This document shows, one piece after another, positions 40,801 through 43,800 of a stretch of DNA of 51,595 nucleotides. Position numbers: made by a program. How positions within the stretch are numbered: position 1 is the stretch's first letter; each line of letters begins with the position of its first letter. The stretch is from a virus (lineage: Duplodnaviria > Heunggongvirae > Uroviricota > Caudoviricetes). The DNA lies in IMG/VR virus record IMGVR_UViG_2711768017_000018; one strand, given 5' to 3'.

Positions 40801-43800
40801 CGAACGGCAGGATCATCCGCCAGCGGTTGTGATGCCGCCGGAACGGCACCACTGGCGAAAGATGAATAACGTTCCGGCTCAGGCTCCAGCAGAACACGCC
40901 CCTGCATAAACAGGGGCATCAGCTCTGAACCTGGCCTGAACAATACGATCCCCATACGCGGGGCAATTTCAGGGGTCAGTAGTGCTCTCACGGTCACCTC
41001 AATGAACGGTATCGAGCAGCTTTAACAGCTCAGGGAATCGGGATTCGAAGAAATGCGGCTGCGTCTCGCGCGGATTTGCAGGACTGGTGATGTTCTTGCC
41101 GAACATGCAGCCTTTCGCCGTCAGCGACCAGAATTTTTTGATGTTGTTAATCGCGGTACGGCTGTATCGTTCGCGTTGTTCAACGATCCCCAGCTTCACC
41201 ATCTGGTGATATGCCTGATTAGCCGTCAGGCGGATACCATACTGCTTCAGCAGTGCACTCAGCGACAGCGTGGGGCGACTTGAGCCATCAGGCGCGTCAG
41301 CAGGAGCATCAATGGCATAGCGCGGTGCCAGATTCGGTAAGCCAACAGCCTCCTGAAGCTTCTGACAGGCTCCAAGCACTGATGAGTTAGACAGATTTAA
41401 TTCCCGGCGCATAAAGTCCAGCAGGATCACGCCAGCCTGCATCTTGTCAGCAGCCTGTCCGGATAATTTTTCCGGTGCGCTGGTTACCATGTCGAAAGTA
41501 CGGATCACCTTCAGATGGAATGACGGGCTGATCCACATTGCATAGGCATACACCAGTTCTTTGCAGACATACGTCCCCTGGTTATTTCCGCCATTAATGA
41601 CGCTAACTGGTTGATTTTGTTCCAGAGGCGGAATTCCACCCTCGGTGAAAAGTTGTTCAATCAATTCACAGGTTTGCTTATTGGAGAGCCAGTATTTCGG
41701 GCGGTTTTTTTGTTCTCCCCCGGCTGCCCTGTGCAGATCGTTCAGGCTGTAACGCCCATAAGCATCACGACGAACTTCAATACCATCAATGACCATCAGA
41801 TTATTCATACTTCGTTTCTCCTCTTGATCAGGCGGCTGCACCCGCCGGTTTCTCATACTTACTGATAGTGATCTCGACCTTCCCTTTCTGGATAACCGGT
41901 CCCCACTCCACCAGCATTCTTTTCACCTGGCTGTCGTCTTCCCACACCCCCGCGTGGGTCAGGGCGTCAAACAGCGCCTTGTTATAGTTGTCCAGATCGC
42001 GGATCCGGTTATCCGGAGGAAACAACACGATCTCCACTGAAGCAGGTGCCGACGTTGGTTTTGGCAGACGACGTAACTGCTCAACTATTGCTGCGCACGC
42101 CGCGCTCTGAAATTTTCGCCCCGCCGCGCTTATCAGGCTCTTACCAGCAAATGCCCCTTTGTTGGGGTGTCGCCAGTACGTGTTCACGCTGGGCGGGAAA
42201 GGCAGGATCAGCTTCATACTTTCAGGCCTCTCTCATGTAACCAGTGGGTTGCACGCAGCCTGGCGTTTTCCTCACCGGCAAGCAGTGAGCGGATAATCCC
42301 GACCGCCTCGCTGTCGTCGTCCTTCACCGCGGTATGAAGAGTGATACCCCGGGCCATGCCACGCTTTATCGTGATGACGCCTTTTTTCTCCAGTGCGCGA
42401 AGATGTTCCACCGCTGCATTCACTGAACGGTATCCCAGCATGGTTGCCACCTCCTGATTGGTTGGCGGGAAGCCACGTTCTTTCTGGTAAGAAATCAGCA
42501 TATCCAGCACCTGCTGCTGGCATTGAGTTAACGTCGTCATGCCGCCATCTCCCTGACCAGTTTTTCCGCCTGCTGGCGAACCTGCGCCAGAAACGCCTCA
42601 CCACATGCCTCAAGTTCATCGCGCCCGATGTAGCTGATTGCCGGTCCCTTCCAGGTCTTGTCGAAAACAGCAATAGCACCAGCGAAGAAAGCGCCTGTCG
42701 GCACCTGCTTCTCGTCCTTCGGGATAAACCAGGCAGGCAGTTCAAAACCAATACGCCCGCGAATAAAAGCAATATGATCTGCATCTTCCGGCCACCACAC
42801 TTCGCTGGTGGCAGCTTTGATCAGGAAAACATAGCGTCCGCCCTTATCACGCATGGCACTGGCATGTTTCATGATGTAACGCATGCCGGTGATGTATTGC
42901 CCTTCATGCTGACTGGCGCGGCTGTACGGGGGATTACCAAAGGCAGCACCTTTAAGCTCCGCAAGACGTTCAGACCAGTCATGCGCCAGCGCGTTGTCTT
43001 CCGCAGTGTAATAAGCGGCACATTTGGCGTTATCACCATCAGTGAACAGATCCAGAACAAACGGGCCAAACAGGGTGTTAATTCCCCAGAAAATGTTATC
43101 CGGCGTGCGCCACTGATCGCCCACTTCCTTCAGTTCATGGGCTGGTTTGTTCCGCAGCTCCACCAGCGCCTGGCAATATTTATTACTCATTAAGCCCCCA
43201 CGTAATTCCCTGACAGATACCACTCTTCACCCGATGCAGCGCGCTTGCTGCTTTTCCGTAAGCACCGCTCACGACGCGCCAGAAAATTGTTTCGTTCTGG
43301 CTGGGAGTGGCTTTCACGGAATGCCGCCATCCACACCGTTGCAGCACGACGGTATAAGCCCCTGGACTCCAGTTCTTCCGCCTGGCGGGTCAGGCACAAA
43401 ATCACCCGGGGATCGTTAGTGCCGACATAGAAATTGCGCACAGGTCTGGTTTCACGAACTGGTTGTGGTTCCGGCTCCTGCGCTCTCTCAGTCAGGCGTG
43501 GGAAATGTCTGCGTGTATCTCCTTCATAACGGTGAGCCACACGCCCACTCTGACGTAACTTGCTTGCTGACTGCAGAACGCGCTGCCGTGAGTAACCTGC
43601 AAAAGCATCCGCAATGTCTCCGGAAGTACACCCCGGATGGGCTTCAATGAATTTCTGAACTTCATTCAAAAGACTCATGATCACCCCCTGAATCCTGCCG
43701 GGATCTGGCTGTAGTCCACGTTGTCGTAACTGGCTTTGAAGTACGGGTCCTCGCGTCTGGCTGCAGATACCGCAGGAACTTCCCAGAATTCTTCGAAATG

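What the first reader, a model, noticed from the sequence alone, without database searches (positions are those of the whole stretch)
42214..43190. Second orphan methyltransferase (Dam-type) next to a LexA-like DNA-binding domain protein
The nin-like region encodes a phage-type N6-adenine methyltransferase (AAFGNPPYS) in addition to the DPPY enzyme at 36901-37953. Two unrelated orphan methyltransferases in one prophage suggest layered anti-restriction protection. The adjacent 108-aa protein looks like a LexA DNA-binding domain without the peptidase domain and could interfere with SOS or prophage regulation.
Basis: partly seen in the sequence, partly recalled or inferred. Interest (0 to 1): 0.35.

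Follow-up and report, generated by a model that had tools for sequence, protein, structure and literature searches.

The report
Prophage Dam-type methylase and LexA-like gene
The interval holds two ordinary, already-annotated early genes of a common E. coli lambdoid prophage: an adenine DNA methyltransferase, and a small protein that copies only the DNA-binding head of the SOS repressor LexA and whose function nobody has tested.

Summary
42537-43190 (-) encodes a 217-aa phage N6-adenine methyltransferase (PF05869/TIGR01712, NPPY intact). 42214-42540 (-) encodes a 108-aa protein that is a LexA DNA-binding domain plus a conserved two-helix tail, with no peptidase domain. 36901-37953 (-) is a second, unrelated methyltransferase.

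All three are known sequences. They are 99-100% identical to genes of SfV, mEp460, cdtI and Stx2c phages. The 1.9-kb module occurs in 2697 of 5426 complete E. coli genomes.

The interpretation needs revising in three ways.
- The DPPY enzyme is about 81% identical to M.EcoGII, the characterised non-specific adenine methylase. On its own it would mask most adenine-sensitive restriction sites.
- The two methylases assort independently among related phages (odds ratio 1.3, p 0.78), so they are mosaic modules and not a co-selected layered system.
- The Dam-type enzyme is only 23-29% identical to the characterised GATC enzymes (T1, 933W/VT2), so its specificity is unproven.

The LexA-like gene is not tied to the methylase: 30% of near-identical copies lack it. 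It is almost always translationally coupled to rusA (171 of 173 loci). It keeps 4 of LexA's 5 DNA-contact residues and is under purifying selection. Its target and role are untested; a non-cleavable SOS-box binder is plausible.

The parts
42537..43190 (-). Phage N6-adenine DNA methyltransferase, 217 aa (PF05869 / TIGR01712). Motif IV NPPY at residues 86-89.
   Evidence: It shares the D-W-TP, LD and NPPYS motifs with the T1 and 933W Dam enzymes. It is 100% identical to the gene of phage PhiR40_1.
42214..42540 (-). 108-aa LexA-N-terminal-domain-like winged-helix protein (PHROG 362). wHTH at residues 1-68, linker, then two conserved C-terminal helices (74-87 and 93-103). No S24 peptidase domain.
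   Evidence: dN/dS is about 0.2 in a sister subfamily for both halves of the protein.
41828..42217 (-). RusA Holliday-junction resolvase. Its start overlaps the LexA-like stop (ATGA). It is the near-invariant downstream partner of the LexA-like gene.
   Evidence: PF05866. RusA lies directly downstream in 79/80 and 92/93 related loci.
43190..43684 (-). PerC-family protein (yfdN-like). Its stop overlaps the Dam start (TAATG). Where the Dam cassette is absent, this gene lies directly upstream of the LexA-like gene.
43681..44499 (-). Replication initiator-like protein (HTH_36 / DnaD_N), the head of the replication-to-Q gene string.
39236..40030 (-). Antiterminator Q, the end of the nin-like early string.
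   Evidence: PF03589.
36901..37953 (-). Second orphan methyltransferase, 350 aa, beta-class (DPPY ... FxGxG). M.EcoGII family, so a predicted non-specific adenine methylase. It lies between Q and the lysis genes.
   Evidence: It is 81% identical over 349 aa to the M.EcoGII sequence in the supplement of PMC11551740. Position relative to Q and the lysis genes.
37926..37945 (-). SOS-box-like 20-mer TACTGTAAAAATAAACAGTG covering codons 3-9 of the M.EcoGII-like gene. Candidate LexA (or LexA-like protein) site.
   Evidence: CTG-N10-CAG is kept in 36 of 36 homologous gene starts among the fetched loci, including the M.EcoGII-type N-terminus and a variant TACTGTAAATTTAAACAGTA.
2766..2813 (+). Two tandem canonical SOS boxes (CACTGTTTATCCATACAGTT and TACTGTATACAAATACAGTG) over the promoter of a prophage dinI-like gene (2826-3074). 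They show the prophage is wired into the host SOS regulon, and they are candidate targets for a LexA mimic.
   Evidence: PF06183 DinI, E 1.1e-19.
46444..47118 (+). CI-type prophage repressor with a Peptidase_S24 domain (ymfK-like). This is the prophage's real RecA-cleavable LexA-family repressor, distinct from the 108-aa protein.

Best explanation
The interval contains two translationally coupled delayed-early genes of an SfV/mEp460-type lambdoid prophage integrated at dusA.

Gene 1 is a TIGR01712/PF05869 N6-adenine DNA methyltransferase.
- It is an optional cassette that sits between the replication genes and rusA.
- It is transcribed with the replication genes after induction (inferred), so it would methylate newly replicated phage DNA.
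- Its target is probably GATC, by analogy with T1, HP1 and VT2 Dam, but this is not shown.
- It is independent of the late-region methylase at 36901-37953, which is an M.EcoGII-type non-specific adenine methylase and the broad anti-restriction device of this phage.

Gene 2 encodes a stand-alone LexA-type winged-helix DNA-binding domain fused to its own conserved two-helix tail (likely an oligomerisation or partner-binding element; inferred).
- It lacks the S24 domain, so it cannot be inactivated by RecA-stimulated self-cleavage.
- It keeps Ser39, Asn41, Ala42 and Glu45 of LexA's recognition helix, but has Val in place of Glu44.
- It therefore most likely binds CTGT-type (SOS-box-like) half-sites as a non-cleavable regulator made during lytic growth (inferred).
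- Its constant genetic partner is rusA, not the methylase.
For: Identity of the genes:
- Family assignments, motifs and fold.
- Operon structure: overlapping start and stop codons and no terminator-like sites on the coding strand.
- Known and common: 98% nucleotide identity to Stx2c phages and 97-98% to mEp460. Both methylase genes and the LexA-like gene are also found in SfV and cdtI. The module is in 2697 of 5426 complete E. coli genomes.

The Dam-type gene is a facultative cassette:
- 53 of 77 near-identical LexA-like genes have it directly upstream; 23 of 77 have yfdN instead.
- Yersinia phage YeP2 has a methylase directly upstream of RusA with no LexA-like gene.

The second methylase belongs to the M.EcoGII family: 81% identity. 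Non-specific activity and silence in lysogens are reported in PMC5778455.

The two methylases are independent: Fisher p 0.78.

LexA-like protein:
- Four of five LexA contact residues are kept. The contact list is from PMC3091678; the alignments are.
- The C-terminal helices are conserved down to 36-47% identity.
- dN/dS is about 0.2 in both halves.
- RusA is directly downstream in 171 of 173 loci across three subfamilies.

The prophage carries canonical SOS boxes at dinI-like and at the M.EcoGII-like gene.
Against: - No experiment on either protein was found in the searchable literature.
- GATC specificity rests on relatives that are only 23-29% identical.
- Position 44 of the recognition helix is never Glu in the phage family. 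The dimer geometry must also differ from LexA's, because the LexA dimerisation domain is absent. The operator could therefore differ from the SOS box in sequence or spacing.
- A scan of CTGT-Nx-ACAG spacings in the window singled out no alternative spacing.
- Expression timing is inferred from gene order only.
- The model's confidence is moderate (pLDDT 78, pTM 0.53).
Confidence: 0.6

Rival explanations
1. The two methyltransferases are a co-selected, layered anti-restriction system, each covering restriction enzymes that the other does not.
For: Both genes are intact and orphan. They co-occur in SfV, mEp460, cdtI, PhiR40_1, 569R4, the Stx2c phages and Kp4866-6. They lie in different transcription units (early versus downstream of Q), so they could protect at different times.
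Against: Their presence and absence are statistically independent among related contigs (odds ratio 1.3, p 0.78). An M.EcoGII-type enzyme methylates adenine in any context (PMC5778455), so a GATC or other adenine methylase adds no new protected sites once it acts. The host is already Dam+.
Confidence: 0.2
2. The 108-aa winged-helix protein is a subunit or controller of the adjacent methyltransferase. It would direct the enzyme to particular DNA or RNA targets, as the wHTH protein PNB-2 does for the prophage MT-A70 enzyme M.EcoPA8orf6770P, or act like a C-protein.
For: The genes are translationally coupled (ATGA overlap). In other subfamilies the gene directly upstream of the LexA-like gene is often an adenine methylase of an unrelated family: MT-A70 in 11 loci and D12-class Dam in 11 of 15 loci. 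There is a precedent for a methylase plus wHTH holoenzyme in a Stx prophage (PMC10810198).
Against: 23 of 77 near-identical LexA-like genes have no methylase upstream. 57 of 80 mEp390-type copies follow an 82-aa non-methylase gene. YeP2 has methylase then RusA with no LexA-like gene. PF05869 enzymes occur in 587 phage records, most without this neighbour. The slot after the replication genes is a usual place for phage methylases; 933W has NinB followed by Dam.
Confidence: 0.1
3. The Dam-type enzyme serves phage DNA metabolism or regulation rather than anti-restriction. It would keep rapidly replicating phage DNA fully methylated at GATC, so avoiding MutH nicking and SeqA binding, or tune gene expression or induction.
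For: It is placed with the replication and recombination genes in the early operon. The host already has Dam, so plain GATC protection is redundant except at high copy number. GATC is not avoided in the prophage: 3.5 sites per kb, 0.75 of the Markov expectation. Another prophage 'Dam-like' enzyme was shown to act on induction frequency rather than on restriction (PMC10810198).
Against: There is no direct evidence. Specificity is unknown. The gene is dispensable in about 30% of sister phages.
Confidence: 0.25

Closest known systems
SfV dam / orf42 / orf43 (rusA), and the same module in mEp460, cdtI, SfII and the Stx2c phages
   Same: Same genes in the same order. The LexA-like protein is 96-99% identical at protein level and the Dam 99-100%. 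The 1.9-kb module is 97-98% identical in DNA to Stx2c phages and mEp460. SfV also carries the DPPY methylase as orf48.
   Different: Nothing material. In SfV, orf42 and orf48 are annotated 'unknown'. No functional data were found.
M.EcoT1Dam, the M.EcoVT2Dam/933W Dam and M.HinHP1Dam (characterised PF05869 enzymes, GATC)
   Same: Same Pfam/TIGRFAM family. They share the D-x-W-x-TP, LD and NPPYS motifs.
   Different: Only 23% (T1) and 29% (933W) identity. The window enzyme has a 10-residue insertion after NPPYS and a longer C-terminus. The motif after LD reads LDLFTD rather than LD(S/A)AAS. Specificity is therefore not transferable with confidence.
E. coli LexA
   Same: The N-terminal 68 residues are about 50% identical with the same fold (0.9 A). 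Ser39, Asn41, Ala42, Glu45 and the wing Arg64-Gly65 are kept.
   Different: No S24 peptidase/dimerisation domain. The score is below the TIGR00498 cut-off (71.3 against 110.95). Glu44 is replaced by Val. There is a family-specific two-helix C-terminal tail. The Ala-Gly at residues 88-89 resembles the cleavage site but is not conserved in the family.
M.EcoGII / M.EcoGI (non-specific adenine methyltransferases of E. coli O104:H4 prophages)
   Same: The enzyme at 36901-37953 is about 81% identical over its full length, with DPPY and FxGxG motifs and a similar size of 350 aa against 349 aa.
   Different: The comparison used a machine-read supplement sequence, so the identity is approximate. Activity of this allele is untested.
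M.EcoPA8orf6770P-PNB-2 (prophage MT-A70 enzyme plus wHTH partner, 16S rRNA methylase)
   Same: A prophage 'Dam-like' methylase gene next to a small winged-helix gene. It is a reminder that annotation as DNA adenine methylase can mislead (PMC10810198).
   Different: It belongs to a different methylase family (MT-A70, DPPW motif) at a different genome position. The wHTH gene lies upstream of the methylase there. No sequence relationship to that system was shown.

Membership tests
PF05869 / TIGR01712 phage N6-adenine methyltransferase | Profile score above the curated cut-off over the full domain | tested here: met
   PF05869: 156 bits against 28.1, profile positions 3-167 of 169. TIGR01712: 255.6 bits against 97.05, positions 1-165 of 165.
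PF05869 / TIGR01712 phage N6-adenine methyltransferase | Catalytic motif IV (D/N)PP(Y/F/W) and the family's conserved N-terminal D-x-W-x-TP and LD motifs | tested here: met
   NPPYS at residues 86-90. D25, W27, T29, P30, L46 and D47 are invariant in the alignment with the T1 and 933W enzymes.
PF05869 / TIGR01712 phage N6-adenine methyltransferase | N6-methylation of adenine in GATC on DNA | not testable with these tools
   The characterised relatives are only 23-29% identical. No closer characterised enzyme was found.
Orphan (solitary) methyltransferase | No cognate restriction endonuclease gene adjacent | tested here: met
   The neighbours are PerC-like, LexA-like, RusA, KilA-N, DUF968/HNH and Q. 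DUF968/HNH also occurs in phages that lack the methylase.
LexA repressor (TIGR00498) | N-terminal winged-helix LexA_DNA_bind domain | tested here: met
   PF01726 covers 1-65 of 65 positions, E 2.1e-19. Foldseek top hit is 3jso at 0.9 A.
LexA repressor (TIGR00498) | C-terminal S24 peptidase/dimerisation domain with the Ser119-Lys156 dyad | tested here: not met
   The protein ends at residue 108 and has no PF00717 hit. The TIGR00498 score is 71.3 against a cut-off of 110.95.
LexA repressor (TIGR00498) | Ala84-Gly85 self-cleavage site | tested here: not met
   An Ala-Gly occurs at residues 88-89 of this protein. The position is not conserved in homologues (TGG, AEE, ANE), and no catalytic domain exists.
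LexA repressor (TIGR00498) | Recognition-helix contact residues Ser39, Asn41, Ala42, Glu44, Glu45 | tested here: inconclusive
   Four of five are kept and Glu44 is Val. Position 44 is never Glu across the phage family. Binding to SOS boxes was not tested.
PHROG 362 (phage 'transcriptional repressor', LexA-NTD-only proteins) | Full-length profile match | tested here: met
   E 4.3e-59, residues 1-108 on profile positions 1-106 of 106.
M.EcoGII family (for the enzyme at 36901-37953) | High full-length identity to M.EcoGII, with beta-class motif order DPPY ... FxGxG | tested here: met
   281 of 349 residues identical (81%). VTDPPYF and FFMGSGST motifs are present.
M.EcoGII family (for the enzyme at 36901-37953) | Sequence-context-independent adenine methylation | not testable with these tools
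   Inferred from PMC5778455 only.

The most novel reading that the evidence does not exclude
The 108-aa protein is a phage-made, RecA-proof LexA mimic. LexA has been cleaved during SOS induction. The early operon then supplies this uncleavable SOS-box binder, which re-represses part of the host SOS regulon and the prophage's own SOS-boxed genes (dinI-like and the toxic M.EcoGII-type methylase).

Its near-obligate coupling to rusA suggests one specific payoff. ruvAB is LexA-controlled, and from memory of the RusA literature RuvAB antagonises RusA at junctions. Re-repression of ruvAB would give the phage resolvase free access to junctions.

A weaker variant of the idea is that the protein acts directly with RusA as a DNA-targeting partner.
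Probability: 0.2. Interest if true: 0.6.

Novelty: already known. Interest (0 to 1): 0.25.

Why it matters
As found, it matters little. These are common, annotated prophage genes.

The useful corrections are:
- The 'DPPY enzyme' is an M.EcoGII-type non-specific methylase.
- The two methylases are independent mosaic modules.
- The lysogen methylome is the wrong test.

The residual value lies in the LexA-like protein. It is a widespread small protein, present in about half of complete E. coli genomes, under purifying selection and coupled to rusA, and it has never been studied. If it proves to be a non-cleavable SOS-box binder, it would be a new way for temperate phages to rewrite the host DNA-damage response after induction. 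That would bear on Stx-phage induction and on competition between prophages.

Tried and rejected
1. The tail of the 108-aa protein as a remnant of the LexA linker and cleavage site (LLAGE against VAAGE). Rejected: the Ala-Gly is not conserved in 36-47% identical homologues, whereas the helical pattern is.
2. The Dam-type enzyme as M.EcoGV or the 16S rRNA methylase of PMC10810198. Rejected: those are MT-A70 enzymes with a DPPW motif; this one is PF05869 with NPPY.
3. A relationship to the Hia5-type non-specific methylases (PMC3299994). Rejected: those are alpha-class, Dam/DpnM-like enzymes.
4. A PDB sequence search for the Dam-type enzyme found nothing significant. I ran no further search on it, because a fold would not give its specificity.
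5. Fang et al. 2012 (the C227-11 methylome) is not held in the library.
6. Literature searches for the LexA-like nin gene returned nothing relevant.
7. A scan of CTGT-Nx-ACAG for x = 0-20 in the window. Only x = 8, the SOS spacing, gave biologically placed sites. The four x = 5 hits are two duplicated pairs in the tail-fibre repeats.
8. The exact CTGT-N8-ACAG site at 45443 lies inside the ash-family ORF with non-consensus flanks (GGCTGT...ACAGAG). I judged it probably chance.
9. A homodimer or RusA-complex prediction could not be run, because only single-chain prediction of window or database sequences is offered.
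Full report
**What is there**

The window is a lambdoid prophage inserted at dusA (dusA 542-1579, integrase 1668-2765). Almost all phage genes lie on the minus strand.

The flagged interval holds two ORFs exactly as described.
- 42537-43190 (-) encodes a 217-aa protein. It matches Pfam PF05869 'Dam' (E 9.7e-46) and NCBIfam TIGR01712 'phage N-6-adenine-methyltransferase' (255.6 bits against a cut-off of 97.05). It contains AAFGNPPYS.
- 42214-42540 (-) encodes a 108-aa protein. Residues 1-65 match the whole LexA_DNA_bind profile (PF01726, E 2.1e-19). There is no Peptidase_S24 hit.

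The surrounding gene string is replication protein, PerC/yfdN, Dam, LexA-like, RusA, KilA-N, DUF968/HNH, Q.
- Stop and start codons overlap: TAATG, ATGA, ATGA.
- No terminator-like site lies on the coding strand between 45100 and 40600.

This is a nin-like delayed-early operon. The second methylase at 36901-37953 (-) is PF01555 with DPPY and FxGxG motifs. It lies between Q and the lysis genes.

**How common and how known**

- The 1.9-kb module is 97-98% identical to Stx2c phages, mEp460 and vB_EcoS-569R4. It also covers Stx2a_WGPS2, where an IS629 interrupts yfdN.
- The LexA-like protein is 96-99% identical in SfV (orf42, between dam and the rusA-like orf43), SfII, cdtI and Stx1 phage Lys8385Vzw.
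- The module matches 2697 of 5426 complete E. coli genomes, and at least 80% of it is covered in 1636.
- RefSeq already names the genes 'phage N-6-adenine-methyltransferase' and 'LexA repressor / LexA family transcriptional regulator'.
- The 108-aa protein is a full-length member of PHROG 362.
- I found no functional study of either protein.

**The Dam-type enzyme**

It shares the family's invariant D-x-W-x-TP, LD and NPPYS motifs with T1 Dam and the 933W (VT2-type) Dam. Identity is only 23% and 29% respectively. It has no sequence relative in the PDB.

The VT2 enzyme is reported to target GATC (PMC6602927). T1 and HP1 Dam doing the same is from my own knowledge. GATC is therefore a family-level guess for this enzyme, not a result.

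Two look-alikes were excluded.
- M.EcoGV and M.EcoPA8orf6770P are MT-A70/DPPW enzymes (PMC10810198).
- The Hia5 group is alpha-class (PMC3299994).

GATC is not avoided in the prophage: 3.5 sites per kb, 0.75 of the Markov expectation.

**The other methylase changes the picture**

The machine-read supplement of PMC11551740 gives the M.EcoGII sequence. The 350-aa enzyme is 281/349 (81%) identical to it over the full length.

M.EcoGII methylates adenine in any context. It blocks many restriction enzymes, is toxic when expressed constitutively, and is silent in the lysogen (PMC5778455). The broad anti-restriction function of this phage therefore most plausibly lies in the late-region enzyme. A GATC (or any adenine) methylase adds no new protected sites once that enzyme acts.

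**Are the two methylases a system?**

I fetched 80 IMG/VR loci that carry a LexA-like gene at least 98% identical to this one.
- The Dam-type gene is directly upstream in 53 of 77 with enough flank. yfdN is directly upstream, with no methylase, in 23 of 77.
- The M.EcoGII-like gene is present in 20 of 56 with enough downstream flank.
- The 2x2 table for the two methylases (13, 20, 7, 14) gives an odds ratio of 1.3 and Fisher p 0.78.

The two methylases are independently assorting mosaic modules. 'Layered protection' is at most a by-product, possibly temporal (early versus late).

**The LexA-like protein**

Similarity to LexA:
- Residues 2-69 align without gaps to the E. coli LexA N-terminal domain (E 8.9e-16).
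- An AlphaFold model (pLDDT 78) has the LexA winged helix, a flexible linker, and two helices at 74-87 and 93-103.
- Foldseek's best hits are LexA chains from the LexA-DNA complex (0.9 A over 67 columns, 51% identity).
- Of LexA's helix-3 contact residues Ser39, Asn41, Ala42, Glu44 and Glu45 (PMC3091678), four are kept and Glu44 is Val. Across the phage family position 44 is never Glu, while Ser39 is invariant and Asn41 nearly so.

The tail and selection:
- The two-helix tail is conserved in homologues only 36-47% identical, including mEp390, a Klebsiella phage and metagenomic representatives.
- In the mEp390-type subfamily dN/dS is about 0.2 for both the winged helix and the tail.
- The whole protein is therefore functional, and the tail is a family-specific module, probably for oligomerisation or partner binding.

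It is not a LexA.
- It has no S24 domain.
- It scores below the TIGR00498 cut-off.
- The apparent Ala-Gly 'cleavage site' is not conserved.
- The prophage's real RecA-cleavable repressor is the S24-domain CI-like protein at 46444-47118.

**What the LexA-like gene travels with**

RusA is the immediate downstream gene, usually with a 4-nt overlap, in three subfamilies:
- 79 of 80 window-type loci;
- 92 of 93 mEp390-type and P0129-type loci.

The upstream neighbour varies:
- PF05869 methylase or yfdN in the window type;
- an 82-aa unknown protein (57 loci), a replication protein (14) or an MT-A70 methylase (11) in the mEp390 type;
- a D12-class Dam in 11 of 15 loci of the P0129 type.

Three unrelated adenine methylase families therefore recur in the slot just upstream. 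But many copies have none. YeP2 has a methylase directly before RusA without a LexA-like gene. 933W keeps its Dam next to NinB. The simplest reading is that the stretch after the replication genes is the usual home for early phage methylases, and that LexA-like plus rusA is the conserved unit. A methylase-partner role, as with PNB-2 in PMC10810198, is not excluded but is the weaker reading.

**SOS wiring of the prophage**

Exact CTGT-N8-ACAG sites occur four times in the window against about 0.8 expected. With up to one mismatch there are 33 against 16.5 +/- 3.9.
- Two are tandem canonical boxes over the promoter of a prophage dinI-like gene (2766-2813; gene 2826-3074, PF06183).
- One, TACTGTAAAAATAAACAGTG, covers codons 3-9 of the M.EcoGII-like gene.

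CTG-N10-CAG with TACTGT is kept in all 36 homologous gene starts I could examine. These include a copy with M.EcoGII's own N-terminus (MLNTVKISSCE) and a variant that is closer to consensus, TACTGTAAATTTAAACAGTA. The flanking DNA is also well conserved, so this is suggestive, not proven. These are natural candidate targets for host LexA and for a LexA mimic.

**Most likely mechanism**

Shown:
- gene identities, intact motifs, operon layout, modularity, and purifying selection.

Inferred:
- Both genes are expressed after induction with the replication genes.
- The methylase modifies replicating phage DNA, probably at GATC.
- The 108-aa protein binds CTGT-type half-sites and cannot be removed by RecA-stimulated cleavage.

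Speculative (probability about 0.2):
- It re-represses SOS-box genes once LexA is gone, including the phage's own dinI-like and M.EcoGII-like genes and host ruvAB.
- The last of these would favour the co-translated RusA.

**Verdict**

The finding is real but ordinary. Interest is 0.25. The LexA-like-rusA pair and the SOS box on the M.EcoGII-family gene are the only threads worth an experiment.

Noticed in passing
window 36901-37953 (-): The 'DPPY enzyme' is about 81% identical to M.EcoGII, the characterised non-specific adenine DNA/RNA methyltransferase. It sits between Q and the lysis genes, followed by a terminator-like hairpin at about 36878-36894.
   Followed up: yes
window 37926-37945 (-); also L007, L008, L009, L171, L175, L177-L179, L181: A near-consensus SOS box (TACTGTAAAAATAAACAGTG) overlaps codons 3-9 of the M.EcoGII-like gene. 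CTG-N10-CAG is retained in 36 of 36 homologous gene starts examined, despite amino-acid changes (VKINS, VKISS, VNLNS). This suggests LexA control of a toxic methylase. No report of it was found, and the M.EcoGII paper does not mention LexA or SOS.
   Followed up: partly
window 2766-2813 and 2826-3074 (+): A prophage dinI-like gene (PF06183) just inside the integrase end, preceded by two tandem canonical SOS boxes overlapping a TTGACA -35 element.
   Followed up: partly
window 3297-5196 (+): A defence-type cargo next to the integrase: a 183-aa SLATT-like membrane protein (PADLOC RTasSLATT, E 1.5e-56) plus a 458-aa reverse transcriptase with YVDD (PADLOC RT_UG17, E 1.1e-158). Together they form a DRT-class system.
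   Followed up: partly
window 45013-45100 and 45125-45201 (-): Rfam hits to C4 antisense RNA (82 bits) and IsrK sRNA (64 bits), lying inside or next to the Ash-family ORF (44725-45561). This is a P1/P7-type c4/IsrK antirepressor-control module in the early region.
   Followed up: no
L090-L184 (IMG/VR loci); L185 (YeP2): Across three subfamilies of the LexA-like gene, rusA is directly downstream in 171 of 173 loci. The gene directly upstream is often an adenine methylase of one of three unrelated families (PF05869, MT-A70, D12-class Dam).
   Followed up: partly
L010-L089, about 2.9-4.5 kb upstream of the LexA-like gene: 17 of 80 related contigs carry a perfect SOS box (TACTGTTTTTACATACAGTA or TACTGTTTTTATATACAGTA) in the early region. 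This is probably a LexA-controlled antirepressor module that is absent from this window.
   Followed up: no
window 5352-5550 and 11626-11824 (-); 5893-9297 and about 12178-15445: Two copies of the Rfam 'IS009' element, and duplicated tail-fibre / tail-fibre-assembly segments. Identical SOS-like near-matches recur about 6.1-6.3 kb apart.
   Followed up: no
window 10730-10959, 12363-12600, 14220-14446, 17226-17347, 36692-36761: Runs of N (masked sequence) inside the window. None touches the finding.
   Followed up: no
window 51023-51595 (-) and 50607-51026 (-): A SocA/Panacea-domain protein (PF13274) with a small upstream partner at the right end of the prophage. This is a toxin-antitoxin-like pair.
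   Followed up: no
Search of protein representatives output (P0132, P0134, P0146, P0150, P0157 and others): Many 140-230-aa metagenomic proteins contain two tandem LexA_DNA_bind domains ('2 stretches'). These are single-chain pseudo-dimers of the LexA head with no peptidase domain.
   Followed up: no
window 37954-38104 (-): The 150-nt leader upstream of the M.EcoGII-like gene is about 91% conserved from E. coli to Citrobacter and Klebsiella phages. It contains a hairpin (CTGCTTTAGCGCAAAAGCAG). No Rfam family matched it.
   Followed up: no
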